Below the pieces are notes generated by a model. That model did no database searches. It worked only from the letters and a program-made list of their open reading frames with translations, and was not told where the DNA came from. Shown in pieces: positions 6,236 through 38,200 of a stretch of DNA of 64,000 nt; positions within the stretch are counted from its first letter, which is position 1; each line of letters opens with the position of its first letter. The DNA is from Amoebophrya sp. A120 (Eukaryota > Protista > Dinoflagellata): the NCBI GenBank assembly GCA_905178155.1, contig CAJINV010000006.1, positions 1,737,876 through 1,801,875 on the forward strand. The letters run 5' to 3'. Position numbers and translations under genes: made by a program.

Positions 6236-6471
6236 TATGGCGTTCTCAACTGTTACATTCTCAACTGTTACATGAATTTGTGACGCAAGACTGGCAAAAG
6301 TGAAAGGAGGAAGATTGCGCCTTTTGCATTACAAGCCTGGCGCAGATTCAGATGCTGTCTAGCCCTTGCGAAATTTGTCATGCGAAGCAGCTCGATCATC
6401 TGCCGGCTTAAGGTGCTTTTGCATCACAAATCCATGTAACGGTTGAGAATGTAACGTTTGAGAACGCCATG
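6236..6471. mobile_element. Family H introner copy in the 3' flank of gene 1, without an intact TSD
   Basis: Starts TATGGCGTTCTCAACTGTTACA 2 nt after the stop and ends GAGAACGCCATG instead of ..CCATA; flanks TGAAA and GGCTA do not match. Confidence 0.75.
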
Positions 6472-7963
6472 GGCTAAAACGGAAAAGAGCTGTGATGTTG
6501 AGGCTGTTCTGTGAAAAGATATTTTTCTTGCTCACGACACTGACAATGTTCTGACACAGACACAGCACGCAGATTGCTGTTAGCCACGCCTTCAATAGCT
6601 GTAGCAGCTCGGGAGGAGCAAAAATGTTGACCGGGCGGGAGCTTTTTTTCACAGTCGAATGAGAAGTTGTTGAAAAGTGTAGAATTTTAGCTGGTAGAAT
6701 TGTTTGAATTGTATGATCCTGCGCAGCTCGTCGCTTCAGGAACAAGGACCATTGTTGTACGCATCTGCAAATCTCGAAGAGTTTTGTGATTCTTGTCCGT
6801 AACAGGCTACATCTTAGGAGCGAACTTCCTTTGATGCGAACACTGCGCGACAACACGAGTTGTTCTGCCGTATGCAGCATATTTGTCTTGTGTGCTAGGT
6901 GAATCGACTGCGAGGACCTGCTCCAAATGCAACCAGCAAACAAAAGAATGCAGATTCTCAACAATACGGCGCTAAGAACCACCACGAACTCGGTTTTGTG
7001 CGGTATTAGTGTGTTTGTTTTCGGTGTAATCACGAAGCAAGAATGTATTCGCAGGATCTTGTTGCTCTCAGTCTCAGACTCAGTCAACAGACAGGGAGGT
7101 TATTTTGTTCGTCGACGTGTCACAAGAACTTTCAACATGTTCACTGTTGTTCTGTGGGCGTACTACAACTAAATCATTTGTCAACGTCGCAGAGGACCGC
7201 GCATGACGACGAGGCAAGCCTGCTAGACATGCTCTTACTATGAGGAGAGGCTACGGCTAGAAGCATAGAGCATTCGTCGCTTACAACAAGGGTATACTAG
7301 AACAACAAGAACCGAAAGAGCGTCGTCGAAGCGTATAGTATTCTTGAACAAGTAGAAACTACTTCATGTCGTGAAAACTGTGGTCGTGGTGGGGTATTCA
7401 GTGATGCACTAAGGAGATCATAGTGAAACAAATCACGAAAAAAAACTTGTCCTGCACTTGCTTCTACGTGGTACAACTAGTGATCGTAGCGAGTGTTGAT
7501 GAGCGAAGCAACGGTCAGTCGTGCCTGTATTTGAATATTCATTGACCTCGTCCGATCAAGTTGTAGTTCTAGCTCTACGTAGTCGTAAAACCACCTTCAG
7601 TCGGAGAGACGAGTAGGTAAATACTTCTAGAGAACAAGCACTTTGATAAATTTTTGCATGGAAGCTGTTTATCATAGATGAAGTATGGCGTCTTAGGCAC
7701 AGTTTTATTTGAAGTTCTTGTACATGCTACTTGTCTACTTCATGACAACATCCACATCAGAATAAGACAGGGACCGACTGTTGTTTTTTTTGACCGGAAC
7801 TACTACAGTGCTGGGTCATCAACAAATATATGGCGGGGAGAAAGAAAAGAAAACTCAAACAAAACCGACCACAGGGTGACGAGAAAAAGATGGATTTGCT
7901 TTTACAAATCTAGTAGGGAACCAGAGCAGTAGAAACACGACCTTATCGTGAATAAGATTGATC

Positions 7964-10900
7964 ATGCCGGAGCAGCTGCAGCAGCAGTCTTCCGCAGCGT
8001 CCAGTGCTGCTGCTGCGCATCACCAAAACAGCAATCCAAATACACCCTATATCCCGGAGAGCGAGACGCCGCGGTTCAAGAATCTCGGGTTTCAGGGGCT
8101 GTTGCAGTTGGCGCAGAAGGCAAATCCGGTGCTGCTCGACACTGCGGTTACGAGGATAAGTGACGGGGATGGGTACGACGTTTTGCTCGAGGACGGTTTC
8201 GATATCCTTTGTAAAAGTATTGTACCCGTATTGCAATCATGCATTACAAATCTTTTTCTTAAGGTAAATCAGCACTACAAATTTTATTTCTCATGCTGAG
8301 GTGGACGAAATTTGTAATGCATCTATCGCAGTTGTACAAATTTGTCTTTGTCATGCGACTTTTCCTCTACTAGTACGATTTACTTTTGCAATGCATATTC
8401 GACCGGACCCTACAACACTCCACAAGCCAGCTTATCAGCGAGGGTATTAGTCGCGTAGTTGTAGTTCAACATCACTTCACCATGCGTTTGCATTTATTTT
8501 TTCATATTTTATTTCAACGTAAAGTCGTTTGTCATGCAGTTGCAGATTGAACATCAACACTTATACATGGCAAAAGTATCGTACTCGTAGTAACAATTGC
8601 AATACAAATTAGCTCAGCATGACAAAGGAAATTTCTCATGCTGATTTAGCTTGAAAAAGAAATTTGTCTTGCATGGCTGCGATTTTTCTTGCTAAAATCA
8701 CTTTAAAATTCTGATCAGGTGACCCTTCCTCCCCGAAGTCTGCTTCGGGTACCAAGAAGAAGCTCCGACACGGAAAATCCTCTGGTGACGTCGGGAAGTT
8801 GGAACGGCAAGTATCCCAACTCGAGGCGAAGCAGAAAGCCACCGACAAGAAGCTGAAGGAAGAAAAACGACGAGCGGTGGCGCTGGAAAAAGAGTTGGCG
8901 AAACTGCGGGTGGACAAAACCGAATATGAGAATCAGCTGTTCCAGAAAACCATCGACCTGTCGGCGTTGAAGAAGGAACGAGAGCTGGACCGACGGGCTT
9001 TCGACGCGGACTGCAAGAAGAAAGAGGTGTTTCTGAAGAAGCTGCTGCTCATATGAAATTGCACAAGTCCCCGTCCCCCTCATTTGTATGGCATCAACAG
9101 CATTGCAAACACCAGCACAAGTGCACCCTGTGCATGACAAGTTCATGATGCGCCGATTGTACTACTGTTTGGATCATTTCCGGAATTTGTCATGCACGCG
9201 GTGAAACAAGGTAGCAAGTGGATTTGGGTTTTTGCATGACAAATGAGGGGGAGGGCGGGGAGTTGTGCAGTGCCATAGCTCACGAAGAAGGAAATTTTGA
9301 AGGACCTGAAATTGAAGATCCGCCCAAAAACCGCCTTATCCTGTGCAAAAGTATCGTACTTTCGTATTGCAATCATGCATTACAAATCTTTTTGTTAAGT
9401 CAAATCCGCATTACAAATTCTATTTCTCATCATGCTGAGGAAATAATTTGTAATGCATTTATACAAGAATCGGATAGGATACTTTTGCAGTGCATACGCC
9501 TCCTTGAAAGACGCCGGAGGGGTCCACATAGATGAGTTAGCACTGGAGCGCCGATATCAAGTGCAAAAATGTCTGGGTCTGGAAGTAGAATGCAAGTTTG
9601 TCATGCTTGTCACGCGTGGCTCGAGAATCTGTGTTGCATCGGCACGAAATGGCCCTCTTACCTGTCATGCAAAAACGCAGTTTGCCATGCGGAATACGCA
9701 AGACATTGCAGCCAAGATGAAATTTGTCAGGCATAGCTGCGTATTGCAGCGCATCTAGCATTCACTTGTAGCATTTGCATTACAAGTTTCCAGACCCAGA
9801 CACTTTTGCATTTGATAGCCGACCACTGTCCGCGTCGAAACCGGTGCCGCAGTTTTCCGATGGAAAGAACATACTAGAACGACTCCAGGGGGAGGACACG
9901 GAGAATCTATGAAAGTGCACAACCCCCCCTCCCCCTCATTTGTCATGGTGCAAAATTCCAAGTCCACCCTTTACCTGTTCGCACTGTTTGCATGACAGAT
10001 TCCGGCAGCACTACAATCCTCTAGGAATTTGTCATGCAAAAGTTGCATCTTTGCCAGCGCTTGTGTTGCCGTTCATGCAACACAAATGAGGGGGAGGGGG
10101 AGTTGTGTGCTCTCATAGAATCTCCTGTCCTTCTACAACTTGAAAGGAATCATGGGCACCGGCGATATCGTGAGGAAAAATCCTGCTCCCTCCCCATATC
10201 GAAAAAGAAATTTGTGTTGCTGTATTCGAGTACACAAATCGCTTTGTATTGCTAGAAGGCCAAGAGACGAAGCTGGTCCCTCTTTTGCAGGCAATTTGTC
10301 ATGCTGTTCCCGTTTCCAGTTGCTTCCTGTCATGCTGAAGACGCAAGGCTTTCCCGCGCCAGCCAGCACTACAATCCGCATCTCTTCCCTTCTAGCACGA
10401 CAAAGCTGATTTGTGGTCACAAATCCGCATCACAGATTTCCGTTTTGATATGGGGACGAGGCGGGATTTTTCTTCTTGATAGGCGAGGGGGTGACCTCCA
10501 CGAGACCACAGTCCGCGGCTATTGCAAGGAAAAACCCCCCTCCCCATAATGTCGAAAACGAAATTTGTGCTGCTGTAGTTGACTACACAAATCGACGTGT
10601 GTTGCTAGAAGGCCAAGACCCGCAGTTGTGGTCTCGTTTGCAGGTGGTTTATCATGCTGTTTCCCACTTCCAGCTGCCTCCTGTCATGCTGAAGATGCCA
10701 GGCTTTCCCCCGCCACCCAGCACTACAGTCCGCATCTTTTGCCTTCTAGCATGACAAAGCTGATTTGTGTACGCAAATCCAGCACGAGAAATTTCGTTTT
10801 GATATTGGGAGGGGGGATTTTTCTTCTTGAAAGCGGCGTCCCGGTCTTCCTACGCGACCGGCACCACGGGGGCTCTACTGAACAATAACCGCTACAGTGG

Positions 10901-13900
10901 CAGAGTGACCCTCCCCATGGCGGGAGGGGGCGTCGCGGTAGAGCAAAGTGATATTCATTGCAAATATGTCTGGGTGGTCTGGAAGGTTGCAACTTGTGAT
11001 GCTGTCTCTGCATTCTAAAAAAATCTGTATTGTATGACCAGCAAGTAGAGGGGTCCAGTTTGTGCTACGTGGAGAGAGCATTTCTCATGCGGAATAGGCA
11101 TCAGGAAGCCCTCCAAAAATCTGTGATGCTAGGTTGTGCAACATTACAGGCGTCACGGGTCATGTAAGATTTGCATCACACGTCTTGCATTCTTCCAGAC
11201 CTCCCAGGCAGTATTTGCATTCCATAAGTGAGGAAGAGCCACCACCACCGGTAAACCCCATGCCGCTGCAGGAGGCGTGGAGCCAGAGTGTGGGGAACGC
11301 AAAGTTATCAAATGCAAAGATGTCTGGATGTCTGGGCGGAGGTTGCGAGATCATTTGTCGTGCTAGTCGGGCATGACTCTGAGCTCTGTATTAATTCCGT
11401 GGCCGCAAAGAGCACGTCTTGCCTGTCATGTAAATAAAACGCAGTTTCTCATGCGGAGTTATTTGCAACTCAGAATCACGGAAAGAGTTGTCATGCTGGG
11501 CAGCGCATTACAGTGTGCTCACTATTCCCTTTCTTGCATCACAAGTTTCCATACCCAGGCAAAGGCATTTTTGCAATGCATAAAAGTCCTCATCCAACAA
11601 TAACCTTGGAACAAGCGGCGCGACCAGCAGCTCGTCGAGACCCGGTACGGGCCGCGGCGGGGGAAAGCAAGGCGGGAGTGGCGGCGGCCTGGCGGCGCTG
11701 AAGGGAGTAAATCTAAACATATGCATTGCAACAGTATCCGATACTAGTATACATAGATCGCATGACAAATTTCCTCAGCATGAGAAATAAAGATTTGTAA
11801 TGCGGATGGACCTTGAGAAAGAGATTTGCAATGCAGGAATGCGATTAGTACAACGAGTGTGGTGCTTTTGCAATGCATAAAACAAGGACGTGGACGATTT
11901 ACTGAATGAACAGGAGTATCCAGTGCAAGAAAAGGATCGTACTCGTATAAATGCATTAGAAATTATTTTCTCAGCATGAGAAATAAAATTTGTTATGCGG
12001 ATTGACCTTTAGAAAAAGATCTGTAATGCAAGGTTGGAATTACTACGAGTACGGTCGCGATGCTTTTGGATTTCATAAGGAGGAGCAAGGGGAGCCGGAC
12101 GACGAAACAAAAAAGCTATCCTGTGCAAAAGTATCGTACTCGTATTGCAATCATGCATTACAAATTTCCTTGTTAGGTCAAATCCGCATTACAAATTTTA
12201 TTTCTCATGCTGATGAAATTTGTAATGCATTTATACGAGTGCGATACTTTTGCAATGCATAAAAGCCACTCTTCAGCAATATCCTGTGCAAAGATAAAGA
12301 AAAGCATCGTACTCGTACGCAACTTCCCAGGAATGCATTACTACAAATCGCGATCTTCAGGTGAAACCGCATTACAAGAAATCTTAATGCTTCTCAGGCT
12401 CTACTAAATGTCATGCTATTCGTACTATGCGATACTTTATTTCCTTTTGCACTGCATAGGCAAAGACGACGTGCAATTTCTGGCAGAGGAGTTCAAGAAA
12501 CTGGACCAGCGGTTTGCCATCGCGAGCATCGACCGGCAGGAAATGGCAAAAATTCAGGCGGAGCTGGCAGTAAGCAGCGAGAAAGCGAGCGACTTGGAAT
12601 CGACTTGCAAGGCAGCGCGGGACTTGATATGCATTGCAGCTACGTCTGGGTCTGGAATAAACTTGTGATGCTAGGCTACGAGGAGTGACTGCTCTGTGAT
12701 TTTGTACAGCCAAGCATTATGAGAAATAAGATATACGTGTCGCGTCGTGTAGTTGCTCTTTCCGCATGACAAAGTGTGTTTTTGCGTGACAACAAGCAAA
12801 AGCATCTCTTCATCTTGGACACGACGCATCACAAACTCTTCAGTCATGCCAGACAAGCATGGCAAACAGTTGCATTCTACTTCCAGACCACCCAGACATA
12901 TTTGCATTGGATACTTGACGCAGAAATACCAAGTCGAAAAAACCAAATTGGAGGACGGCATGAAGAGAAGCAAATCGGTACCATCAAAATTTTTGTTTGT
13001 CATTGTCATGCGAACAACAAGAGTGCTAATATAGTGTCAATAACCTCTGTAGTCAACATCATGCGGTCTGTATTCACTACCAACACAAAAATTATTAGGT
13101 CGCCACCAAGTTGGCAGAGCGAGCGAACCTGGAGGACCAGCAAAATGACAGGGTACGGAAAACTATGAGAGTGTACAACTCGTACCCCTCCCTTTCATTT
13201 GTATGACATGAACAGCAACACAAACATAACTACACGTGGAGCCTGTGCATGACAAATTTATGTACCTACTGCTACTGTAGTAATGTTTGGGCTTCCAAAT
13301 AAATTTGTCATGCAAACAGTCCCACAACGCAGCGATTGGGTTCTGTTGATTTTGCATGGCAAATGAGGGCGAGGGGGGGTTGCGCACTCTCATAAAAACG
13401 GTGAGAAAACATGAAGACCACATTGCCTACCTTAAAAACCAGATGAAGGAAGCCAACGAGAAAAACGGAAAAGCTATAGCGAGAAAAAACTGTTTCACTG
13501 TGAACTTGTGATGCAGAAAATGGAACACAGAACTATTTGTCTTGCTACACGACCTGCAAGACATTGGATTTTCAAACGTGTTTTCGTCCCCTGGGAAGTG
13601 CGCGTGGCAAGTTTTCTTTGTCATGTAGGAGGAACTTGTGAAGCGAAACTCACAAAATGAAAATCGTCACAGTGAAACACTTTTTTCCCACGATAAAAGC
13701 GATCAAAGATCTACAGGCCGAGAACAGTAACCTGCGCAAGAAAAATATCGTACGAAAAAAGTTTGTCACAGTTACTAACTTGCAGGTTTTGCATTACAAA
13801 TTTTTTTAGCATCACAAGTTTTCCTTGTATTGCAGAAACACTAGGAAAATCCCCTATGAAGCTTGGCTGTGATGCATTTTTACGCATGACAGAAAATTTT

Positions 13901-15163
13901 GTATTGCAAGGATGCGCATGAGTGATCGTGACGAACTTTTTTTGTTTGATAAAAAACATGGAGCTGGAGCAGCAGCTGCGGACCATATGAACTGCAAAAG
14001 TATATCGTACTCGTATAAATGCATTACAAATTTTCCCAGCATGAGAAATTGAATTTGTCATGCGGATTTACCTTAAGAAAAAAATTTGTTATGCGTGACT
14101 GCAATTACTACGAGTGCGATAGTTTTGCACAGGATAAACCATATCGTCGAACAACAAGCAGCTGGAGAAATCCATCAACGAAAAGCAAACTGAGGTCGGG
14201 CTTCTTATGGCGTTCTCAAATTGGTTACCCTTACCCTCTCAGCTGTTGCGTGATCTGTCATGCAAAATTACCATCAGAGCCGACACGGCCAAGCAGCTTC
14301 GCATGACAAATTCTCGAAGGAGTGGCAAAGAGGCTGATAAAAATCTGTGCCATCAAATCTGTGATGCAAGACGCGCAAGATCCCCCCCTTTCATCACTCT
14401 TGCCCTCCGTGCATCACAAATCCGTGTAACAGTTGAGACGGTAACCGATTTGAGAATTCCATACTTGTGGAGCAGTGGCGGTCTCTATGACAGTGCACAA
14501 CTCCTCCCCGTCGTTCTCATTTCTCATGCAAAATACCAAATCCACGGCCACGCTTTCCCTCCTGTCACTATTATGCATGACAAGCTCTGGTATCCCAAGT
14601 AGCACTGGTGATGTACTCCAGTGCAACTTTGTCATGCAAATCCGGCACTCTTGCTGACGGTTGTATTGCTAAATATATAATGCTATACAAATGAGGGGAA
14701 GGGGGAGCTGTGCACTGTTATAGTCTCGTTCGGGGGAGTACTTCCGCGAAAAGTACGACTACGAGAACTCGCGGATTACCAAATGCAAATATGTCTGGGT
14801 CTGGAAGAATGCAGATTTTTCTCATGCTGTTTTTGCATGACACAGCAGGTCTGTTATGGAAGTCCTAGCATGATCACAGATATTTCATCGAGAACGTTCG
14901 GCAATGTTTAATCCGCAAGACAAATTCCCCTTTTTGGTGACAGGAAGTGGGCGCGTTTTGCTGCCTATGCATGAGACGAGATTTGCGCGTCTAGTGGAAT
15001 TCTCATCACAAGTTCGGATCCTCATCCTTCCAGACCCAGTCAGACATTTTTGCAGTTGATACGGATCACCAAGCTGCAAAACACGAACAAGCTGCTGCAA
15101 AGTCAGATCGCGGCGGCAAATGCCGGCTTCGACCGCTACTGCGAGCGGAAGGCGAAGATGTAG
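7964..15163 (+). CDS. Gene 2: coiled-coil-rich hypothetical protein with 21 introners and 2 canonical introns
   Basis: ATG 7964 (MPEQLQQQSSAA). The frame stays open through elements starting at 8203, 9052, ~9337, ~9555, ~9908, 10166, 10520, ~10952, ~11306, ~11720, ~11917, ~12117, 12280, ~12628, ~13164, 13475, 13746, ~13986, 14206, 14486 and 14777, and GT-AG introns 8444-8718 and 12978-13098, to TAG 15161-15163. It has E/K/Q/L-rich heptad segments (LERQVSQLEAKQKATDKKLKEEKRR; IKDLQAENSNLRKKNMELEQQLR). Confidence 0.85.
8444..8718 (+). other. Canonical GT-AG intron containing a decayed family A introner (~8562-8700)
   Basis: GTATTAG..TGATCAG, phase 1, joins ISE-G-DPSSPK in frame with ORF 8799-9056. 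Confidence 0.75.
12978..13098 (+). other. Canonical GT-AG intron
   Basis: GTACCA..ATTATTAG, phase 0, joins KRSKS to VATKLAER. Confidence 0.8.
13475..13695. mobile_element. Introner family F representative (about 205-225 bp; TIR TAT..GAAAAAACTGTTTCACTGTG)
   Basis: TSD AAAGC. Other copies at 21090-21304, ~28093-28300, ~38446-38671 and 54944-55152. Confidence 0.9.
13746..13951. mobile_element. Introner family K; an opposite-orientation copy lies at 54670-54880
   Basis: This copy ends ATCGTGACGAACTTTTTTTGTTTGATA and the 54670 copy starts TATCAAACAAAAAAAGTTCGTCACGAT; TSDs AAAAA and GAAAA. Confidence 0.9.
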
Positions 15164-16940
15164 TAGTTGATGAAACGGGAACGCGATCGCGAACGGACAG
15201 AGTGGTCTACTCGAGGACCGCTACAACTACAACTACATCGTCAATAAACCTTCTACTCACTGAATTTGTTGTTTTTCAACTACTTACTTTCATCAATCTT
15301 TATCTTTAATAGTGAACCACAACCAATACCAATTGCAAATTTTTCATCACAATCTTTTTACTATCTTTAGTGCAGATATGGAAGTGTCAGGATTGAAATC
15401 GTCAAAGTTGAAATAATTTGTGATGCATAAAATGCAACCCACAAAGTGCCTGCCTTGCAGAGTAGGCAAGGGAGGCACATTGCAAGGGGGGTAGAAATAG
15501 AGCTGCTAAAGTAGCATGACAGAAGGCGTCTTCCTTGTTACCCAAACAGCAATACAAACTGGATTTAAGCACCGCCAAAACTTGTCATGCGCCACTTGAA
15601 AACTGGGCTCCAACTGGCATCCATTTTATGCATGCCAAACTATTTCAACTCTGACGATTTGTTTCAAACCTGACACATCCATAGCAGAGCCACAAAAACC
15701 AATTGCAAATTTTTCATCACAATCTTTTACTACTTTGTTCACCAAAACTATCCGTACAGTACTTCTGAAGATCATGGTGCACAGACAGTGCCATGAAGAA
15801 GGCCGTTGATGTGCATGGAACACCAGCACCACCAGAGGCGAGCATTTAGACTGAATTTTAGACACAATAAGGAGAAATATACCTCCACTCAAGTAGAGCT
15901 ACCTTCAAGAAATAAAGTTTAGGCCACTTGATTTTCATTTTAGACAACTTTGACAGCGAGGAGAAGTGAAGTGCAGGATATCAGCAGTTTTTAGCTGTAC
16001 TAACAGACTGTGCGCGACGGAGGAGGTGCGGGGGGGAGAATGCATTTCGAACAAACGGGCAGGTGGACGAGAGCAAGTGCTATGAGATTCGGCAATATGG
16101 TCGTGCTCTCGACGACGTCCGGTAATTATGTTGCGCCTGTTTCTAGTACTCCGCGACTTGTTATATCCTTTGAAGACAACAAGAACAGAAGTACTTCTAG
16201 ACCCTGTATTTACACTACGTTGATTAGACCATTTTATTTTTATTAACTCAAGTTGGCATTGCCGTTGGACTTGGAGCACGACTGTGCGGCACCAGTACTA
16301 CACCGTTTGATGCAACAATACGGTCGTAATATCTACTTCGTGCTTGATTCATCATGTACAGATTGATACGTGAATAGAAGGTGACGAAAGAAGAGAAAGG
16401 TAAAAATGGGCTCAGCCACCTCGTGTTGATTGCAGTTGTTGACTAGTATCGATCTTTGATGAAGAGGACAAGCAAGAAGTTCTGCGACGTCGCGTGTCAT
16501 CTGGTTCATGACATCCCCATCAGAAAACAACGACCAATTGTTGTTTTCTTAGAAGATCTACACTAGGTCTTCAAAAAATACCAGAACGCCGAGAACGAGT
16601 GCAAGAAAAAATATAAGTGACTGTACTACTAGACCGCCGCGTGGCCTTCTAGTTGATGACGACCGAGGGCAAGAAGGGAGACCGTAGCTCTAGAATGCGT
16701 GGCTCGAGCGGGAATGAGGGACAAGAACTCGAGAGTAGATCTTGTAGTTCATCGTGGGTTATGTTTGTATTTCCTATCTTTAGGAAAGTGAACAAAGAGG
16801 ACTTCATCTGATACCCTGCAACTACTACAGCACGTCGACTAAGTTGTAGAAACCAAAAGCAAAACACAAGCAAGGAGAGGAACAACTAGACCCACTAGTC
16901 TTCGTCTTCAGGGGTCGTGGTCGCAAAAGAAGAAACCATC

Positions 16941-20377: not shown

Positions 20378-20465
20378 TTCTGCATCCGAGGAGCAAGCTG
20401 ATGTCAGGTTGCGTTTTTTGCAACGACAACTACATAATATCATCAGGTACGTCCGTCTTCACAGC

Positions 20466-26400: not shown

Positions 26401-28602
26401 GGGAAAACAATGCGCGGCCCGGAAGGATGGGCAACAGCTAGGGGGCGCCAGAAAAGAAAACGCTAAGCGCAAGCAGTCCAGCTGTTCCTTTTTTCAGGTT
26501 CATTGCGCTACCCATCTGCTGGCATTTGCTCGTGGTCCAGCCCTTCCGCCCCTGTATCTGTGGCTGCGCCCGCACTGCTTCGCCAGACGCGGTATGCGTC
26601 AGCGAGAGTATGTTTTCGTATGGCAGAGGTCAAGAAAACAGAGAAAGCTCGTAGCAGTAAACAACGAAAAACGGACCAAAGGCCTGCGAATTTGGCGGGG
26701 TTTCGCTTCGAAGACAATCATTGCAATTTTCACGACTTAAAAATTGATGCAAAATAGTAGCGAGCAGGTTCACCATCGAAATGAGGAAAGTTGGAGGTTT
26801 GTCCCAGCATAGTTTTTTTTCCTTTGATGCCTGTGGGTGACCAGCAGTGGTGTGTTATCCTGAGCAAAAACGTCCCCACCTCATAGTCAAAGATGGGGAC
26901 CTTGCAACACAAACCTGATGAAAGTGTCGGGAGTCACGCATGACAAGTTGCAAGCCGTAGTGTATTGATACCGCAGGTTCTTAGCAAGGACAGTCGCGTT
27001 ACAAATCCATCTCCTCATGCTGATTCCAAAACACGATGGAAAATGGCTCTCAATCTCATGTTGTTGGGGATGCGCATTACAAATGTTTCTGCGATTGCAA
27101 ATTTGCATGACAACTACTCTGAGGTGGGGACGTTTATTTCACCCAGCATACGTGATGCCAGAGGACGAGCTGGAGGACTTGCAGCTACAACTGGACCAGC
27201 AGGGTAATATCATATTACTATCGATGTTTTTTTGTCATGCGTAAACATGCAATACAGACGGCATCTGTGATGCGGAAGCTGTATGCGTCGAGTGAAGATG
27301 ATGAAAAATCATGAAAATGATGTCCACGACCTCCTCCAGGTTGGTCCGTCTTATCCTATCACGCGCTGAACGAGCACGCTCTGGACCCTGTGCTGTCGCC
27401 AAACCTCTGCTCCCACGGGGCCACGGCCTTTGCGAAAATTAATCCCAGTATTTTGCTGCAGATCTTGGAGTATGCACTGCAAAAGCATCGCACTTACTAG
27501 TATGAATTGCATTACAAATTAGCCCAGCATGAAAAGCTGAATTTGTCATGCTGAATTACCTAAGAAACCAGATTTGTCATGGTAGTCTGGCATTTAATAT
27601 AAAAGTACGATGCTTTTGCGCAGGATATGGAGGAGCACAGTCAGGAACTGCAGATGTACAGAAACCTGTTTTATCACAGCTTGAAGGTATGAAATGCAAA
27701 AGTATGATCGTACTAGTAGTAGAAATCGCATTACAAATTTCCTCAGCATGATGAGAAATAAAATTTGTAATGCGGATTCACCTTAAGGTTATTTGTAATG
27801 CATGACTGCAATTGCTAAATCTAAACGAGTACGATACACTTTTGCAATCCATAAAAGGCCTTGAAGGACAACTTTGCGGACCCGAGTAACGCTGCGTTTA
27901 TCCAGTGCAAGAGCATCGTACTCGTAGTAATTGCAATTATGTATTACAAATCTCCATCCCAAGGTAGAACAGCATGAGAAATTCCTTTTGTCACGCGGTA
28001 AGGTAATTTCAATTTGTAATGCAATTACTACTAGTACGAAGCAGTTTTGCAATGCACCGCGTTTCGGGAGAAATTGAATTCCGACGAGGTATTATCCCAC
28101 GAAAAAACTGTTTCACTGTGGTGATTTTGCAAAATCTGCATCACAAGTTTGCTACGCATGACACTGAAAATCTGTCTGGGGGGTTCCTAAGGGAAAACAC
28201 AGCTAGAAATCACTTGTCTTGCATGTGTAGCATGACACACACTTCTGCGATCCATTTTCTGCATCACAAGTTCACAGTGAAACAGTTTTTTCTTGCGATA
28301 GGTATTGCGGCTGAAGACGTTACTGGAGGATTTCATCCTGACCGGTGGCAACCCTGGGCAGGTGCTGCACAACATCGACGGTACCATTTTGCTATCCTGT
28401 GCAGAGGTATTGCACTCGTATAAATGCAGGTCTTGCATTACAAATTTCTTTTTCAAGGAAAATCGGCATTACAAATTTAATTTCTCATGCTGAGAAAATT
28501 TGTAATGCATTTATACGAGTGCGATACTTATTTTGCAGGTCATATTTTCTGGAAGCGCAGATTCTGTTCAAGCTCTTGATTCCTTTGGTCGACGGGGTGT
28601 GA
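20466..28602 (+). CDS. Gene 4: hypothetical protein with ~20 introners and at least 2 canonical introns; the junction across 24780-26835 is unresolved
   Basis: Open frame from MLFPAPAASEDEPASKMPQLETLKHQLN.. through to ..YKYRDSATYLCAQIQQRALE (24778). It resumes at VTSSGV-L-PEDELEDLQLQLDQQ|GWSVLSYHALNE.. and runs to TGA 28602. GT-AG introns at 23535-23778 and 27204-27339. Could be two genes. Confidence 0.65.
24482..24733. mobile_element. Introner family H representative (TIR TATGGCGTTCTCAA)
   Basis: TSD TCGGC; another coding-region copy at 14206-14463. Confidence 0.9.
24979..26858. repeat. Triplicated 45-70 bp host segment separated by two unrelated inserts
   Basis: ..TTCCTTTGATRCCTRTGGGTGACCAGCAGTGGYGTGTTAT at 24979-25048, 26089-26158 and ~26813-26858. 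Confidence 0.88.
25392..25546. repeat. Near-perfect palindrome with 69-bp arms and a 17-nt centre, inside an array of AGTGAGAARTCASTGATTTCTCACT units (~25080-25670)
   Basis: Arm 25392-25460 is the reverse complement of 25478-25546 with one mismatch; the centre has a further CCGAA/TTCGG stem. Confidence 0.92.
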
Positions 28603-29637: not shown

Positions 29638-31490
29638 ATGGCGAAGTCAATTCGTTCCAAGATCAAGAAGAGGCTCCGCACCGTGAAGAGGCAGCGGGTG
29701 GATAAAATGGTCGATACCCCGAGGAGAGAAGCTTGCAACAACTCGCTGACGAAGCTGATTAAGGGCGAGGTATTAATACTTATTGCGATCATGCATTACA
29801 AATGTAGCTGCTAAGGCAAACCCGCATTAGAAATTCAGTCTGTAATGCTGAGCCAACTTGTATTGCGTTTTACACCAGTGCGATCCTTGTTGTTTTGTAA
29901 TTCATAGAGCAATGAAGCTTGTAACAACTCGCTAACGAAGTTGATTAAGGACGAGACATGAAGGATTTTTGTATGACGATGAAGCGGTGTTTATTTTTTG
30001 CTGTAGCCAACATCCTGCTCCTGCAGCATCAAACAACAAGGAGCGTCGAGAACACCAGAACACCTCAAACAACACATCACGCGGTGTTGGTTTCCGACAT
30101 GCAGCTTGCATCAGTTCTCAAAGGCGTCGCTTCATCAGTTTTTGCATCACAAAAGCTTGCTCTTGTGTAGCTTTAGGTTTAGGTTTCTGTAGCATTACAA
30201 ATTTCAATTTTTCTTTCCAATCAGGTCACCCGACACAAGCAAGTAAAGAACGCGTTTCTTCACCCAAACGACCCAGAGGCCGAGATTCCGCAGAAAAGCG
30301 TGAAAAAACCGATCGACTTCCGATCAGAAACGCTGCCGATGGTACTGAATTCTTTCACTTGATAACATACATGCTGGTTCAGTGTTGTTCGATTTTTTTT
30401 TTTTCGTCTTCAACAAACACACTTCATGCATCCTGTTCAGCAACATGCTACCTGCTGTGTAAAATTTTTTACATGCTTTGCATGACATGACATGACATGA
30501 CATGACATGACGAAGTTGTCGTAGAGGCCTAGATCGTTCTTGCGCAGCAGTTGTACTAGCATGACAAATGAAATAAAAACCACAGTCCGGCTTCGCCACT
30601 AATATGAACTGCAAAACAAAGTATCGTACTCGTATAAATGCATTACAAATTTCCTTAGCATGAGAAATAAAATTTGTAATGCTGATTTGCCTTGATAAAG
30701 AAATTTGTAATGCAAGACCTGCATTTATACGAGTGCGATACTTTTGCACAGCATAACTAAGGGTAACCGACGAAAGTACACGGAGGAAGAGCGGAAAGAA
30801 TTGCAAAAACTCGCGAAATATGCATTGCAAATATGACTGGGTCTGGAAGGATGCAAGGTTTGTCATGCTAGTCTGGCGTGACTCTGAATTCTGTATTGCG
30901 TGGCCACAAACTACAGCCTCTCTCGCGTGTCATGCAAATACAACGCAGTTTCTCATGCAGAATACGCAGCACAGAAGCACGAAAAAACTTGTCATGCAGC
31001 TTGGTGGCGCATAATTATACCACTTATTCTTGACTGCCTTGCATTACAAGTTTCCAGACCCAGACATTTTTGCATTTGATACGAAATCCCACCCCGAGGA
31101 GAAGATACTCGCGGGCAGGGGCAAACTTGCGTACGAGTCCTGCAAGGTCGGTCAGGATAGTGCGAAACAAGTCGCTGCTGTTCTATCCTGTGCAAAAGTA
31201 TCGTACTCGTATTGCAATCATGCATTACAAATTTTTTTCTTATAGGTAAATCCGCATTACAAATTTTGTTTCTCATGCTGAGGAAATTTGTCATGCGATT
31301 TATACTAGTACGATGCTTTTGAATTTCATATCTTCAGGAGAATAACGATTCCGAAGAGGACGCAGAAATGGAAGAGTCTGGAGAACAAGAAGCGAAGAAA
31401 GACGACGTGGATACAAAGCGCAAACCGGAACTGCCGAAGAAAAAAAAGAACGCCAGGAGTCGGGTACAGAAGTTCCGGCAGAAGAAGTGA
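29638..31490 (+). CDS. Gene 5: small basic protein, LLPH (Laps)/YBL028C-like 60S ribosome biogenesis factor
   Basis: Exons 29638-29769 (MAKSIRSKIKKRLRTVKRQRVDKMVD..), 30225-30341 (..KNAFLHPNDPEAEIPQKSVKKPIDFRSETLPM) and 30586-30602, then onward SGFATKGNRRKYTEEERKELQK.. to TGA 31490. It has 2 GT-AG introns and 3 introners (30603, ~30819, ~31184). The MAKSxRSK basic N-terminus is the hallmark of that family; recognised from memory, no search run. Confidence 0.7.
29770..30224 (+). other. Canonical GT-AG intron whose first 137 nt are a left-truncated family A introner
   Basis: GTATTAATACTTATTGCGATCATGCATTACAAAT.. aligns to family A from its internal GTAT to ..TTCATA (29906); acceptor CCAATCAG at 30224; phase-0 join KGE|VTRHK. 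Confidence 0.75.
30481..30510. repeat. (CATGA)6 microsatellite in canonical intron 30342-30585
   Basis: Directly visible. Confidence 0.95.
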
Positions 31491-32446
31491 TAGTTTACTT
31501 CGGGTGAGGATTATTTCGTTATTGAAAATCGCTTTTATTATTCGCGATGATCGCGAGGCATTTGCATTTCGCTTTCCCTTTTCCTTTGTGCCTCATTGGC
31601 GGGCGCGGGTTGGGAGAAGGAGATGATGGCGGCCTCATATTAACATGCAACTACATCAAACTATCTAAAGATGCTCTGATGATGAAAGAATAGAAAACCT
31701 GTTTGGCCCTGGCGTCAGAGGCAAGCATTGGTGTTTGTGAGCAAGGTTTCGTGTTTGTTGTTGATCAGATGGCGCCCAGAGGCTTGCTCTGACTCCACTT
31801 TGTCAGCCGCGTAGATCGTATCGAATACGATGTGTTGTTGAAGACAAATATGAAATTTACAAAAAAGTCGGTCCACGTCGACATGATCCAGCAGATCGTG
31901 CAAAGCTGGTATAGTACTTCGTGCAAATTATACAGCTAGATCGTGCAGCAGCCTTTCGTGCGACGTCTAAGTTGTACAAAACTTTCGTCCTGTTACACGA
32001 CCTTTCGCAGTCCTAGTTTCAGTCTCGGTTCTTGTTCCTGTACAATCGTGACAGAGAAAACTCGTCGCTCGGTTCTTGCTTTTGCTCGTTCAGTCACGAA
32101 AATCTGCTTGAGGCGGTTGTATTAAAAGGATATGCTTGTCGTCATAATTCGTGAAGCATTTATCTCTAGGCTCTTTTTGATTTGGGTTTTAAATGATGAC
32201 AGCGCACCTCACGCTCACCCCATTTCATTCTTCCACCCCGTATCAAGTACTTATTTCAACATCGCTGGTGCTGTAGGTCCTGTTGCACTCTTGATGATGA
32301 AGCCCTCCAACTAATGTGGTACGACGACGTCGTCGCAACTATCGAGTTGCAATTCTTCCTTGTTCCAGTCTAGTAGTCTCGCATTCAATACTAGAAGCCA
32401 GCGTATTTCCACGACCACGACCTTATTCCAGCCTGATAAAAATAAA

Positions 32447-35400
32447 ATGGCCTCGCCCACCCCAACAACCCCGGCCGCGCGGCCCAGAACATTCGGAGCG
32501 TCGAAAAGCGGCAGCCTGAAGATCTTGACAGAGGAGAACGACAAGAAGGATAATACCGTGCAGCCGGTTCTTATTTCCGAGGACCAACTGCCTGCCACAA
32601 CGGCCCTCGACCGCCAAAGTTCTTCCAAGAGTTCCACCAAGTCCGCTCCGTTCATGCCCCCGGACAGTCCCTATCCTGTGCAAAAGTATCGCACTCGTAT
32701 TGCAGTCATGCATTACAGATCGGTTTCTTAAGGTAGAGCCGCATTACGAATTTTATTTCTCATGACGAGGAAATTTGTAATGCATTTGTACGAGTGCGAT
32801 ACTTTTGCAATGCATAGTCCCCCTGGTTACTCAATCCTGGCGTCCTTGAGTAAAGAAAGCATTGCCACGCCGGGCTCTACTAGGAGTACTCCTGCTGGTG
32901 CTGCGCGCCGGGGGCTGCTGGTGCCCAGGTCTACTAGTCCGAATGATACAGCCAGTGTGAAAAGAACTAGAGAAGTAGTAGAGCGTATGAATTGCAAAAG
33001 TATCGTAGTCGTATAAATGCATTACAAATTTCCTCAGTATGACAGATAAAATTTGTAGTGCGGATTTACCTTAAGAAAAAGATTTGTAATGCATGACTGC
33101 AATACGAGTACGATACTTTTGCACAGGATAGAGCGTCTCTCTTCAGATCCAGCCTACGATCCCCAAAGCCCGGTCGCGCGAGCGGCTGCCGCGCGGCAAA
33201 AACGACAACGCGCTGGTGCACCTCCTGCGGACGTCGATGCTGTTGTTGAACTTGAAAGTGATGATATAATACGAGGCGGCTCTACAACTGGTGCCGCCTC
33301 TCCTGCTCCCACCAGCACAACTGGAGGAGGTGTTGGAACAAGAAAAATAGCCGAGAAGAACCCAGCTGCTGCTCCCGGTCCCGACTCCGAGAAGGAGATG
33401 AACAAGGCCAAGAAGCTGACGAAAGTGGAGCAGAACTCTGGCGGCCCAAGTGCTTCTTCTACCGATCATACGACAAGAGCGCCGGCTCCTTCAACAAGCC
33501 GAAGCCCCGCCGCCGCGGGGCAAGAAGAACAACTCTCCCCCTTGAGCAAAGCCGCGAAGGGGCTGGTACAGGGTCTATTGGGTGAAGAAGTGCACATGGC
33601 AAGGACGGCAGGCGGGGCCGGTGGAGGCGCAGTGCTAACTACTTCTTCCGGGGTCGATTTTGCCGATAAAGCGATTAATGAAAACCAAAGTGGACAAACC
33701 AGTCCTACTGCTGGCAAAAGCGCTATCCCACAACTCTCGCCAAATCAAGTTGTGCATGACGCGGCTCTTCAAGTAGACGACCTCGTCCCGCCGGAAGATG
33801 CACAGGGTGCTGTTGTAGTGCCCTCGTTTTCTACTACCTTGGGCTCCACTGCGAGAAGCCCAGCACGAGGACCTCCGAGTTCCGACTTTGCCGCACGAGA
33901 ACCTCCGGTAGCAAAGGTGGACAAGGGGGGAAAGAAAATAGCGGACAATTATCGACAGAGAAATGAAAATGAAGAAGAAAAAACTCTGCAACGCATCCTC
34001 CACTCAGCCCCGCCTGTGACCACCTATAAATCTTCCGCTCTAGTCCAGCAGGTGGAAAAAGAGTTGGATCACTTGAGAAGGCAGACGGAAGAGCTCAACA
34101 AGATGGAATTTATCCGGCAGAAGGCGGTGAAGGCACAGCAGGACTTCACCGTGGATTCTATCCGGTGCAAAAGTATCGTACTCGTAGAAGTAATCGCAGG
34201 TATGCATTACAAATCTCTTTCTGAGGCTAAATCAGCACTACAAATTCAATTTGTAGTAATGCTGCGCTAATTTGTAATGCATTCATACGAGTACGATGCT
34301 TTAGCTTTTGCAATGCATAGATTCTTTGAGGAAGCAAATTTTTCAGCTGCAGTTCGCTAAGGACCAAGAGTATCAAAAATTGCACCACAAAGTGGCGTAT
34401 CGGGTGATAAACACTTTGTTGAATACCGCCGAAAGCGGCCTGGAACAGCTGAACCAGGGGTACGATGGAGACCTTCTTGGCGGCGGGATAACGCCCAGTG
34501 CAGTAGGTCCGACCCGTGCGTCGCCAATAAACCACTATTTCGGGGACACCACGTCGACGCCTGAAATATTAAGCGATAGACCACCTGCTCCGCGAACAAG
34601 TAGATCTCGCTCACCTCCGCAGGATCATCGGCTCAACATTACGAGGACCACGTCGAGCGCGACGAGACAGAATAATTTGAAAGCAGACACGACACAGGCT
34701 CCTGTTCCAGCAGCAGCTGACCCCAGTTTATTAGTCGTGCCTGGACGAATCGTGAACACGAACCGCCCGTCCAGTCCGAGCAAGTGGCAGGATGAAGTGT
34801 TGCTGAGTTTGAGTAGTGAGGAGTATCACCATGGGACAAGAACCAATGACAACATCACAACACAGGCGAGAGGGACTACACAAGGTGAGCAAAGAAAGTT
34901 TGTTGCTCCGCGAGGTGGACCACGTAGTACAGGGAGGCAAAATGACAAAAAATTCGAGCAACCCACCACCGCGGAACGCTTATGGTTGGAAAGTTTGCGA
35001 CGGAGGGAAAACATGCGGGCACCAGAAGTCATCATGCCCCCGACCGACGATAGTCGTGCAGCTCGTGTAGGCCAACTTTCGCCTCGTCTTATTTCAAGAG
35101 CTGCAACCAGATCGCGATCGAACACGGTCGCACATCAACCAGGAGTGACAGAAATAAAGAACAGACCACGACCACTGTCTTCTGCACCTCGTCCGCTTTC
35201 GACGCAGCACGAAGATGCTCCTCGTCGGGTGTGGCCTCTCGTGCCCCTAGAAATTCCGCCAACGGCAGCAGCTACACCAGCTGCAATGGGTTTGGGTCCA
35301 CCGCCCCTTAGAAATATTAACAAGCGCAGGAGTCGCTCCTTGTCACCGCGGATGAACAATACAACTCAGCCTGTTTTCGATCCATATGCAGTGCAAAAGT

Positions 35401-37075
35401 ATCGTACTTACTAGTATAAATGGCTATGGCATGACAAATTTCCTGAGCATGAGAGAGAAAATGCATGACTGCGATTACTTACTTCTACTAGTACGATACT
35501 TTTGCACGGGATAATCCAGTCGTGAAGCCCAAGCCGCTGATTGACGTGAAAGCCGAGGCCGCACGGATGTTGACACCGCTTCCGCCTGCATCGTTCTCCC
35601 GCGGGTTCTTTAAAAGTGGCTCGAAAAGTGCTCGATCCGTATCCGCGAAAAGCTCGAAGAAAACCAGTTCTGCTGCTGGCAAGGCGAAGAGTTGTGTAGG
35701 ACCAGCAGCAGCCACAACGACTGCACCGCAAAACGCTTCGAAGCAGAGCGTGCCGGAAGAATTGATCGGCACGGGGCACGTGGCGGAGTGGAATGAGAAA
35801 ACCCAGGCGTTCCAGTTTTCCGAAGTGGTGGTATCGACGTACCCAACAACAACAACAACATCTCCGCCTGTTCTTGCGCCCAAAACCGACACGACGACTT
35901 CTAATGTTGACAATAGTACCACGACGACGACAGCAGCAGGGAAGCAAGAAATAAGAAAGCCAGCAGCTGGTGTAAAAAAAGCCGTGTCAAATACAACCTC
36001 TATTAGTAGACCTGTAGTATTTGCCCCGGTCCCGCGGGCTTTTTCCCGAAGATCCCGCATCATGAAGAGTCCACCGAGTAGCATGATCTCCCGGGCAGAC
36101 GTAAAGGTGGTACCGGCGGCGCTGCTCCAGAAAGAGCAGGAAATCATCATGAAAGAGCAGACAGCAGACCGCGATGGAGAGGAACTACAGCTTCTGCAGC
36201 AGGGAGAGGACTTTTTGGGGGAGAAACTTGTCATGCACGACGCCGAACAGGATGGTGGAGATGGACCACCGAGATCAAATGGCGCAACAAATATTTTTAA
36301 GCGGACTACTACTTCGAGCCGACATTTCGTTTCGCTCGACACTGATACTGCGCAGATTGAAGATCTCGATTTGTTGGACAAAGTGCACATCTCCGAGCAC
36401 CGGCCGTCAAAGACGTTGTTAGACAGGTTGGAGATAACGGTCTCGAAAAGTAGTGGAGGAAAAATCGAGGACAATGGGACGTCTCGACCGACGGGCGGCA
36501 ATGAAGGAAAAGCCAAAAGAAATGGAATTACTGTTGCGAGTAGTTCTCAGACCACAAAGAAGCCACAGAACAAGCCCGAAGAGCTGCATCAAGTAGATGC
36601 AGCAAGAAATATGAAGAAACTCGCCCGAAGAATTATATCAACCACTCCATCGCCCTACCACAGCATGGTAGTCCAGGCACACATATGAAATGCAAAAGCA
36701 TCGTACTCGTATAAATGCATGACAAATTCCCTCAGCATGAGAAAAAAAAATTGTAATGCGGATTTACCTTGAGAAAAAAATTTGTAATGCATGACTGCAG
36801 TACAAGTGCGATACTTTTGCACAGGATACCACAACGCGAACCAGCTTTGCTATGTGGAAACCCTGCAGAAGCTCCCGTCTGGGAAATGTCTGACGCCGGC
36901 GAAAGACAAGTTGGAACAAAAACTGCTGGAAAAAAAGAGAAACGAACACTTTCCAAAAGGCCGGTCGAGCTTTGGGTCGTTGCTGACCTTTCCTAGGTGG
37001 AATTGTCCGGAAGTGGATGACTCGTTGAAAAAGTTGTTACGGAGTCTGAAAACGAAAACAGCGATGAATCAATGA
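32447..37075 (+). CDS. Gene 6: large low-complexity (S/T/P/A-rich, probably disordered) protein with 5 family A introners
   Basis: ATG 32447 (MASPTPTTPAARP). ORFs 33089-34270, 34308-35414, 35522-36688 and 36791-37075 join in frame after removing elements at 32672, 32986, ~34159, ~35385 and ~36683 (TSDs GTCCC, GAGCG, GATTC, ATCCA, ACACA/CCACA). Confidence 0.85.
32672..33130. mobile_element. Two adjacent family A introners (most abundant family, about 140-190 bp; TIR TAT-N5-GCAAAAGTATCGTACTCGTA) in opposite orientations
   Basis: 32672-32816 starts TATCCTGTGCAAAAG; 32986-33130 ends CTTTTGCACAGGATA. Both are 145 bp with perfect TSDs. Confidence 0.93.
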
Positions 37076-38200
37076 GGATGGATTATATATTTCTTCCGTG
37101 GATACAAGTCAAGCCTTCTCAGTAACAGTAAGTATCTCGGTTTAATATTTTCATCACCCTCGTCATCGTCAGTCCTTTATTTCCAGCATCGAGTTGTTGT
37201 ATCATAGTGCCAGCAACTAGCTCGGGGTCCTCATTCGGACTTTGTAGATTCGGTTTCGTTTCAGAGAAGTTTCTAAGTTGATGATGTCTACGCAATTGGA
37301 CAACAAGTGTAGTTTATTTGCTCTCCTACTCCTGTGTTTAAATCTATTGTTATCATTTCGATGTGATCGCGCCATCGTAGTACGATGGCAGTGACGTCTT
37401 TTGATGTCGTTCCTATTTCATTTTGAAAATCCCTTTCTCGACGAAAAACTGCTTGCAACACCGCGATAGCGTGATTTGTGTCTCGACCGTTCTTGACTTC
37501 GCTGGTGCCGTGAAAGAAAGCCAATCAATCGCATTTTCTATTTTGAAGCCCAACAAGCCCATAAAAATTGTTGAGGCCGTGTTCTTCGCAGCTGGACTAT
37601 AGAAATCCGTAGGTTATTAAAAGTGTCATCACTCGCGTATGTCGTATGAATGCGTGGACGTCGTTGTTGAGGAATTGTTGTGCAAAAGTGCTGGAAAAAA
37701 TGCTCACGTTGACGGCAATCAAATGTGAAATTCAATGTGGAGAAGTTTCAGTGAGAGAGCATATCGCAAAGCGGCTAGACTCGCTCTCGCACTCGATCTC
37801 GAAGAGCACCAGAGATTTTCAAACGAGACTGCAGAAGATGCGCTACAACAACTGTGCGGTAATTTTGTATGAGGAAACCGTATGCTAAGTCGTGCTGGAC
37901 GGAGCTGCAGGCACCTCATCAACCACTCAGACTAGTCGAGAAACCCACCAGTGCCTCTTCCAACAAGATGGGGCCGGGCGCAGAAGTGGAATTATGTAAT
38001 CTTTTCGTAGAGACATTATAGAGCTTTGTTTGATTGAAAATGACGTCGATGTTGTCGATGCGAGCCTTATATATAATTAAGATCACCGGCAGCGAAAGCT
38101 CCTGCAAGGTGATGAAGATGACCACATCTTCAAAGTGACAGTTTGAATCCGGACGACGAGAGGTCTACTTCCAGCAGCCAACATTTGCAACATCTTCAAG

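What the first reader, a model, noticed from the sequence alone, without database searches (positions are those of the whole stretch)
6236..38200. Inverted TE landscape: elements fill coding exons, avoid intergenic DNA and mostly decay when outside CDS
Seen: intergenic stretches 6.5-7.9, 15.7-16.9, 28.6-29.6, 31.5-32.4, 37.1-38.2 and 60.4-61.9 kb have no element. Of the five non-coding copies, four have damaged ends or lost TSDs (6236 after a stop, ~8562 and 29770 in canonical introns, 18739 intergenic); only 15377 is intact. Coding copies keep their ends. Inference: termini are under purifying selection because they are the processing signal, and insertion may target gene bodies.
Basis: partly seen in the sequence, partly recalled or inferred. 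Interest (0 to 1): 0.7.

Follow-up and report, generated by a model that had tools for sequence, protein, structure and literature searches.

The report
Amoebophrya-type introners with fixed cut position
Short jumping elements crowd the protein-coding parts of these genes and are cut out of the RNA at one fixed offset without the usual splice signals; such elements are already known from the marine parasite Amoebophrya, the likely source of this DNA, and their rarity outside coding sequence is likely set at insertion rather than by later decay.

Summary
The pattern is real and largely known. The window holds 129 TAT...ATA inverted-repeat elements, mostly with 5-bp target duplications (TSDs). 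There are 124 in 16.7 kb of coding sequence and 5 in 11.0 kb of non-coding DNA (p about 1e-21). They match the published Amoebophrya A120 introners, and RNA contigs skip them as element + 5 nt.

(1) At least 3.1 of the 7.1 kb called intergenic is UTR, and UTRs are as empty (2 copies, 26 expected). The bias is to coding sequence, not gene bodies.
(2) Four of five non-coding copies are damaged, against 11 of 124 coding ones. Yet the damaged 6236 copy is still removed exactly, and 29770 likely became non-coding through its damage.
(3) Coding copies do not always keep their ends.

By-product: mismatched TSDs fix the cut. The intron is N-TAT...ATA-NNNN, the only register that fits all 9 informative junctions. 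Intron +2T, +3A and -7A are invariant in 122 of 122 copies while their pairing partners vary. The 2021 paper left this border unknown.

The parts
1428..6233 (+). Gene g1, 734 aa after removal of 11 elements
   Evidence: Single terminal stop; RNA contig gaps of 268 and 177 nt match the model
6236..6471 (+). 3'UTR copy 2 nt after the g1 stop; ends ATG, TSD TGAAA/GGCTA; removed from RNA as element+5 nt, register 4 or 5
   Evidence: Pieces resume at 6476 in X1 and X2; X2 record gap of 177 nt
   Evidence: table 8
7964..15163 (+). Gene g2, 647 aa, 21 elements and 2 GT-AG introns (8444-8718, 12978-13098)
   Evidence: RNA record gap of 1234 nt = 1355 - 121
8562..8684 (+). Copy lacking its right end, inside the GT-AG intron 8444-8718
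   Evidence: intron skipped in X1 and X2
15377..15683 (.). Intact copy in the g2 3'UTR, inside one unit of a ~60-bp tandem duplication; splicing not resolved
   Evidence: RNA on both sides
   Evidence: table 8
16941..18555 (+). Gene g3, 135-aa frame, 5 elements; model not checked with RNA
18739..18994 (.). Copy downstream of g3 with altered right end and no TSD, next to a ~1.2-kb GC-rich insert; both lie between two copies of a ~240-bp duplication (18494-18734 / 20180-20431)
20466..28602 (+). Gene g4, 425-aa model, 20 simple elements and one composite (24792-26829); start and the 26834-26854 exon chosen by frame only
29638..31490 (+). Gene g5, 191 aa, N-terminus Pfam YBL028C_N (E 7e-10); 3 elements, introns 29770-30224 (inferred) and 30342-30585
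   Evidence: second intron seen, table 5c
29770..29906 (+). Copy whose left end is replaced by a ~45-bp duplicate of downstream exon; its internal GTAT aligns with the predicted GT donor
   Evidence: junction not among the RNA rows shown
32447..37075 (+). Gene g6, 1292 aa, low complexity, only 5 elements (1.3 per kb); 3'UTR to 37521
38201..60361 (+). Gene g7, 2147 aa, 57 simple elements and one composite; weak PAN_1 match; aligns across many junctions with a PAN-domain protein P0001
38796..39996 (+). 1201-nt intron with an unambiguous RNA joint: starts 1 nt before TAT (38797), ends 4 nt after ATC (39990-39992) in register with the inverted repeat; nearby GT (38793) and AG (39993-39994) are not used; last 16 nt of the element replaced by a 43-bp exon duplicate
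   Evidence: joint 38795->39997, both=0
38237..38395 (.). Copy with TSD ACTTG/ACTTA: RNA keeps right-hand base 5 (register at most 4); same for 40579-40733 and 42836-43161
40995..41127 (.). Copy with TSD GGCAG/GTCCG: RNA keeps left-hand bases to position 4 (register at least 4)

Best explanation
These are non-autonomous inverted-repeat elements (TAT...ATA, 5-bp target duplication) that are removed from the RNA as element + 5 nt, and they are likely the published introners of Amoebophrya strain A120, likely spliced by a relaxed spliceosome. Shown: removal from RNA in coding and 3'UTR positions; both orientations; 16-fold excess in coding sequence; UTRs as empty as untranscribed DNA; one cut register (intron = N-TAT...ATA-NNNN) fits all 9 informative junctions. 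Inferred: the 5' end is read like this genome's canonical donors (GTAY against NTAY: U at +2, A at +3), and the 3' cut is placed by distance from the folded end rather than by AG, with the invariant A at -7 a candidate branch point. Inferred: the coding bias arises mainly at insertion or fixation (about 65%), and later loss outside coding sequence adds to it. Once in coding sequence, a copy is locked in because losing +2U, +3A or -7A would leave a frameshifting insert; copies inside GT-AG introns are released and erode.
For: Seven gene models each give one terminal stop after removal of element+5. 14 of the 15 joints shown skip element+5 nt; the fifteenth is 38797. Contig gaps of 268, 1234, 177 and 539 nt equal the predictions. 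Register: at most 4 at 38237, 40579, 42836; at least 4 at 40995, 6236; at least 2 or 1 at 40358, 41743, 36684; exactly 1 nt before TAT at 38797. Six of seven canonical donors are GTAT or GTAC; elements start TAT 115, TAC 6, TAG 1. T at +4 varies in 7 copies and its partner A at -7 in none (p=0.016); the six TAC copies are of different lengths and kinds. Signature equals Farhat's A120 description: TAT, seven less-conserved bases, then As; 5-bp direct repeats; mean intron 235 nt against 240; CDS GC 0.56 against 56.3%; all genes co-oriented. For insertion bias: no remnants in the six stretches; the elements' GCAT-N-A(C/G)A motif occurs 2 times in 7.1 kb there but 8 times in 1.46 kb of canonical introns; non-coding copies are no more diverged than coding ones (p=0.32); GC-matched non-coding windows stay depleted.
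Against: First and last intron bases are unconstrained (5' dinucleotides AT 37, CT 32, GT 28, TT 25; all 16 3' dinucleotides seen, AG 18 of 122), whereas spliceosomes normally need a G-G or A-C terminal pair (PMC13326754). No significant excess of G-U over A-C in the stem (100 against 85, p=0.30), so selection on RNA pairing is not shown; ends fold together equally in sense and antisense (112 of 121 each). Most joints come from one run (X2) whose RNA label is a guess; only 15 of 38 joints and 8 of 250 pieces were displayed. A fixed register is inferred across copies: only 38797 is fixed on its own. Density varies strongly among coding regions (1.3 to 16 per kb, p=2e-7), which plain CDS targeting does not explain. 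One window, five non-coding copies.
Confidence: 0.72

Rival explanations
1. Survivor bias alone: copies insert everywhere, and those outside coding sequence erode and are deleted because nothing protects their ends.
For: 4 of 5 non-coding copies damaged against 11 of 124; motif debris in canonical introns; weak 18-30 nt hits at 27228 and 30557 inside canonical introns.
Against: No debris in UTR or intergenic DNA; coding copies whose nearest neighbour in the window is only about 80% identical are still easily recognised, so equally old non-coding copies should be visible unless deleted whole.
Confidence: 0.25
2. Selection against insertion outside CDS: copies in short intergenic DNA cannot be spliced away, and spliced copies deep in 3'UTRs would trigger nonsense-mediated decay, so they never fix (NMD rule recalled, not from a call).
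For: The one UTR copy shown spliced lies 2 nt after the stop; untranscribed gaps are only about 0.4-0.7 kb.
Against: An intact copy lies 213 nt after the g2 stop, splicing unknown; 5'UTRs (about 755 nt) are also empty, though short; no test of NMD here.
Confidence: 0.25
3. Removal is not spliceosomal: a hairpin-recognising nuclease and ligase cuts 1 nt before and 4 nt after the stem, as proposed for euglenid nonconventional introns.
For: No GT/AG or terminal-pair constraint; 3' cut at 38797 keeps its distance from the residual stem and passes over an AG; U1 not found in A25/A120 (PMC7789003); euglenid introns have paired ends, TSD-like repeats and leave as circles (PMC11282704).
Against: NTAY matches the canonical GTAY donors of the same window; invariant bases are orientation-specific and not pair-conserved; no G-U excess.
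Confidence: 0.3
4. GC preference of the mobilising enzyme explains the coding bias, as suggested for introners in general.
For: Insertion-site GC 0.58 against 0.56 for CDS (p=0.011); density rises with GC inside CDS (rho 0.19, p=0.013); PMC9860276.
Against: At 48-56% GC, non-coding windows hold 2 copies in 26 windows and coding windows 50 in 76; an 885-nt exon at 59% GC has none.
Confidence: 0.12
5. The elements are excised at DNA level, or X1/X2 are DNA of a strain that lacks them.
For: The tool marks the RNA label of X1/X2 as a guess.
Against: The same contigs also skip GT-AG introns and end near gene ends, while run X5 crosses element junctions and the 7031-7733 gap unbroken; junctions carry left bases 1-4 with right base 5.
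Confidence: 0.03

Closest known systems
Amoebophrya sp. A120 introner elements (Farhat et al. 2021, PMC7789003; seen: abstract, passages, sections 5, 11, 12, 16, supplement legends; no figures)
   Same: TAT start, seven variable bases, run of A; 5-bp direct repeats; many families; about 240 nt; no GT-AG; co-oriented genes; exon GC 56%.
   Different: That paper leaves the border 'unknown' and puts splice sites 1-5 nt from the repeats; it has no UTR or intergenic comparison in the passages seen. This window is denser (7.4 per kb CDS) than its RNA-supported average (1.42 per kb).
Introners across eukaryotes (Gozashti et al. 2022, PMC9860276; 2025, PMC12130899; passages only)
   Same: Enriched in genes in 161 of 175 genomes, GC bias, TIR/TSD DNA-transposon origin; the 2025 paper lists A120 genes with tens of introner introns.
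   Different: Those tests compare genic with non-genic DNA, not CDS with UTR; most such introners supply or co-opt GT/AG, which these do not.
Polarella glacialis introner-like elements (Roy et al., bioRxiv 10.1101/2020.10.14.339549; passages only)
   Same: Dinoflagellate, many families, TSDs, some in both orientations.
   Different: Phase bias tied to insertion-site needs; here phases are even (46/38/38) and no target base is required.
Euglenid nonconventional introns (review PMC11282704; passages only)
   Same: MITE-like, paired ends with a longer 3' overhang, TSD-like repeats, no GT-AG.
   Different: Pairing at +4..6 / -8..-6 with CAG/CTG and circular products; here the stem starts at +2 / -5 with TAT/ATA, product unknown.
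Fritillaria borealis non-canonical introns (Soo et al. 2026, PMC13326754; abstract, sections 4 and 30) and Entamoeba invadens fixed branch point at -8 (bioRxiv 10.1101/2022.06.08.495308; passages)
   Same: Precedents for U2-type splicing of non-GT/AG, transposon-derived introns and for a branch point at fixed short distance from the 3' end.
   Different: Fritillaria keeps preferred terminal dinucleotides; Entamoeba keeps GT-AG. Here both terminal bases are free.

Membership tests
Amoebophrya A120 introner elements | Inverted repeats of 8-20 nt at both ends, starting TAT, seven less-conserved bases, then at least three A | tested here: met
   Position counts over 122 copies against section 11
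Amoebophrya A120 introner elements | Direct repeats of 3-5 nt across the exon/intron borders | tested here: met
   5-bp TSD: 84 perfect, 34 at 4/5, 4 at 3/5 of 122
Amoebophrya A120 introner elements | Removed from transcripts without GT-AG ends | tested here: met
   end dinucleotides
Amoebophrya A120 introner elements | Repeated, grouped into families | tested here: met
   12 groups of 2-47 copies and 8 singletons among copies under 450 nt
Amoebophrya A120 introner elements | Located in the A120 genome | tested here: inconclusive
MITE / non-autonomous TIR DNA transposon | TIRs, TSD of constant length, no coding capacity, both orientations | tested here: met
   coding capacity judged from size (129-428 nt), no ORF search run
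MITE / non-autonomous TIR DNA transposon | Cognate autonomous element or transposase | not tested
   No genome on hand; the large inserts in the window were not searched; Farhat found no transposase in A120
U2-type spliceosomal intron | GT (or GC/GA) first and AG last dinucleotide | tested here: not met
   GT in 28 and AG in 18 of 122 at the RNA-derived register
U2-type spliceosomal intron | Donor core +2U +3A like the genome's canonical introns | tested here: met
   122 of 122; canonical donors GTA in 7 of 7
U2-type spliceosomal intron | Lariat through a branch-point A; dependence on U2/U6 | not testable with these tools
   Contigs only; invariant A at -7 is a candidate
Euglenid-type nonconventional intron | Conserved end pairing under RNA-level selection | tested here: inconclusive
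   Ends pair in 112 of 121 folds in either strand; G-U against A-C 100:85, p=0.30
Euglenid-type nonconventional intron | CAG/CTG at +4..6 / -8..-6 | tested here: not met
   Position counts

The most novel reading that the evidence does not exclude
Amoebophrya runs a ruler-type splicing reaction in which neither terminal base matters: the folded transposon ends present U+2/A+3 as donor and A-7 as branch point, and the 3' cut falls a fixed 4 nt past the stem. Any 5-bp target in either orientation is then restored exactly, and the mobilising machinery homes on coding chromatin rather than on transcribed DNA.
Probability: 0.35. Interest if true: 0.72.

Novelty: already known. Interest (0 to 1): 0.4.

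Why it matters
The landscape itself is ordinary for this genome type. What adds value is the cut register: how these non-GT-AG introns are removed is an open question, and the source paper could not place the borders. A fixed N-TAT...ATA-NNNN intron with three invariant bases gives exact predictions for lariat mapping and minigene tests, would correct many of the A120 intron borders (66,565 RNA-supported introns, over 60% non-canonical), and would turn the reported 'unprecedented variety' of splice sites into a by-product of random target duplications. The CDS-versus-UTR contrast narrows the targeting question from 'genes' to 'coding sequence'.

Tried and rejected
Genome-wide test: not possible, no genome held. 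No RNA holder is on record for the stretch; X1/X2 were judged RNA from what their contigs skip. Splicing of 15377, 18739 and 29770 was not resolved: the joints were not among the rows shown. Register test by stop codons: uninformative, all registers give one stop. Register test by homology to P0001: scores 863-864 for registers 0-4 and 860 for 5, too weak to count. G-U versus A-C test: not significant; sense-antisense folding differed by -2.1 kcal/mol (p=0.02), not counted because composition can cause it. Greedy GT-AG intron search gave wrong introns in g2, g4, g5 and was replaced by hand-set ones. Three automatic candidates were dropped: 29513 as a false pair, 14003 and 28408 as inner parts of longer elements; nine were added by hand after BLAST. 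The Fisher test used 12 damaged coding copies by miscount; one search uses 11. In the GC-window table 7 marks fall in mostly non-coding windows against 5 true non-coding copies, owing to boundary windows. Density excludes 18980-20179 and 61960-64000. Earlier scan findings: none. Huff et al. 2016 (linker insertion) could not be read and is recalled only. Literature searches for a published register or CDS/UTR contrast: searches listed none, judged from listings and the passages read; Farhat's figures (3, S19-S25), Gozashti's datasets and the journal version of Roy et al. were not seen and may hold it.
Full report
What is there. The window is eukaryotic DNA with seven modelled genes, all on the + strand, packed with short repeats; an eighth frame begins at 61960 and was left out. 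A search for TAT...ATA ends with inverted repeats and flanking direct repeats, completed by BLAST and by hand, gave 122 simple copies in coding sequence, two composite coding copies (24792, 38797) and five non-coding copies. Such pairs occur 107 times in the window and 0-3 times in each of 20 shuffles. The target duplication is 5 bp (84 perfect, 34 with one and 4 with two mismatches). Copies fall into 12 groups plus 8 singletons, each group in both orientations, with median nearest-neighbour identity of 80%. Removing each element plus 5 nt, with seven GT-AG introns and the two composite introns set by hand, leaves one stop at the end of each gene. The spliced g7 protein aligns over residues 1236-1730 with an outside PAN-domain protein (E 8e-103).

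RNA evidence. Contigs of runs X1 and X2 skip the elements; run X5 does not. Their RNA label is a guess of the tool, but they also skip GT-AG introns and end near gene ends. Gaps in contig coordinates equal the predicted exon sums: 268 nt and 177 nt in g1, 1234 nt over 20 elements and one canonical intron in g2, 539 nt in g7. Of 38 joints, 15 were shown; 14 skip element + 5 nt and one is the composite 38797.

The observation. Coding sequence has 124 copies in 16,734 nt (7.4 per kb), non-coding DNA 5 in 11,023 nt (0.45 per kb); binomial p=1.6e-21. The six named stretches are empty, also of remnants. About 3.5 kb of UTR holds 2 copies against 26 expected at the mean coding rate (p=2e-9); against the sparsest gene the deficit is not significant (p=0.17). 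Transcription alone therefore does not attract or retain copies. Coding density itself ranges from 1.3 to 16 per kb (p=2e-7), with empty exons of about 1 kb in g1, g6 and g7. GC has a small effect inside CDS but does not close the gap to non-coding DNA.

The decay claim. Four of five non-coding copies are damaged, against 11 of 124 coding copies (p=6e-4). The cases differ. 6236 lies 2 nt after a stop, ends ATG, has lost its TSD and is still removed as element + 5 nt. 8562 lies inside a GT-AG intron seen spliced. At 29770 a ~45-bp exon duplicate replaces the left end and the element's own GTAT aligns with the predicted donor, so damage likely came first and non-coding status second. 18739 adjoins a large insert inside a segmental duplication. 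15377 is intact. Non-coding copies are not more diverged than coding ones (72-83% against median 80%, p=0.32). The elements' internal motif is frequent in canonical introns (8 in 1.46 kb) and at background in the six stretches (2 in 7.1 kb). Erosion is thus visible in introns but not in UTR or intergenic DNA, which favours a bias at insertion or fixation over decay alone. One window cannot separate targeting from selection against insertion.

The cut register. Where the two TSD copies differ, the RNA shows which one stays. With r the number of left-hand bases kept: r is at most 4 at 38237, 40579 and 42836; at least 4 at 40995 and 6236; at least 2 at 40358; at least 1 at 41743 and 36684. Only r=4 fits all eight. 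The ninth, 38795->39997, has no ambiguity: the intron starts 1 nt before TAT, passing over a GT 3 nt upstream, and ends 4 nt after an ATC that stands where ATA would stand in register with the surviving stem, passing over an AG. The intron is therefore N-TAT...ATA-NNNN. In that frame +2T, +3A and -7A are invariant in 122 of 122 copies, while +4 varies in 7 (TAC 6, TAG 1), -6 in 2 and -5 in 2. A constraint acting on DNA would be symmetric; 7 against 0 for the +4/-7 pair gives p=0.016 (positions picked after seeing the data). All seven canonical donors begin GTA, six GTAT or GTAC. First and last intron bases are free.

Mechanism. Most likely these are non-autonomous DNA transposons removed by a relaxed U2-type spliceosome: the inverted ends bring the sites together in place of U1 (not found in A25/A120), NTAY serves as donor, A(-7) as branch point, and the 3' site is set by distance. 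Removal and register are shown; machinery and branch point are inferred. Precedents exist for U2 splicing of non-GT/AG introns in Fritillaria and for a branch point fixed at -8 in Entamoeba invadens. Against: no terminal base pair of the kind the spliceosome needs, and no sign of selection for G-U-tolerant pairing. A hairpin nuclease, as discussed for euglenids, stays open at about 30%.

Comparison with known systems. The signature matches the A120 introners of Farhat et al. 2021 in every sequence feature tested; Amoebophrya ex Karlodinium and AT5 use GT-AG. No call names the organism. Enrichment of introners in genes is published for 161 of 175 genomes, and A120 genes with tens of such introns in 2025. 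Farhat's Fig. 3 legend calls the border unknown and Fig. S23 gives 1-5 nt. Searches listed no paper giving a fixed register or a CDS/UTR contrast; figures and datasets were not visible and may bear on this.

Verdict. Observation partly confirmed; interpretation partly supported; system already known. Interest 0.4, carried by the register and the three invariant bases rather than by the landscape.

Noticed in passing
window 29728-29955, 38753-40023, 15322-15736, 24979-26859, 18494-20431: Local direct duplications of 42-240 bp flank damaged or composite copies. At 29770 and 38797 one element end is replaced by a duplicate of neighbouring exon that restores the empty-site sequence, as a partial conversion from an element-free template would.
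   Followed up: partly
122 coding copies: TSD mismatches are uneven by position (15, 9, 2, 6, 10; p=0.026), enriched at third codon positions (23 of 42), and in 10 of 15 position-1 mismatches the right-hand base (intron -4) is C.
   Followed up: partly
element ends, positions 4-7: End positions 4-7 pair in only 47-66 of 122 copies, between well-paired 1-3 and 9-15: a shared 3-bp / 4x4 loop / stem shape across unrelated families.
   Followed up: no
canonical introns 8444-8718, 12978-13098, 27204-27339, 29770-30224, 30342-30585: The motif common to all element families also occurs in GT-AG introns at 5.5 per kb; they may be old elements or share an intronic signal.
   Followed up: partly
window 15395-15435 and 18739-18772: Raw RNA reads of run X8 match only these element ends and run on into unlike sequence: related elements at other loci in that organism.
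   Followed up: no
window 18980-20179, 25045-26088, 26156-26811, 38870-39900, 47659-48390, 56650-56770, 62040-63600 (approximate): Larger inserts of other kinds, several nested inside elements; long palindromes at 25315-25628 and a 13-bp tandem array at 47691-47842. Not searched for transposase genes.
   Followed up: no
window 16941-18555: g3 ends in a stretch that recalls formyltransferases (ELDDGPIL; resemblance recalled, no call) but is short; it may be a fragment, yet its five copies are intact.
   Followed up: no
window 4360-5321, 33135-36682, 57625-58509: Exons of about 1 kb without any copy, mostly low-complexity with lower GC3 (0.49-0.53), one with GC3 0.81.
   Followed up: partly
window 572-921: Four copies of a ~35-bp AT-rich repeat upstream of g1, unrelated to the elements.
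   Followed up: no
window 5686-5975 and 20463-20691: Low-depth RNA contigs retain element sequence (depth 6 and 3), consistent with unspliced precursor or DNA.
   Followed up: no
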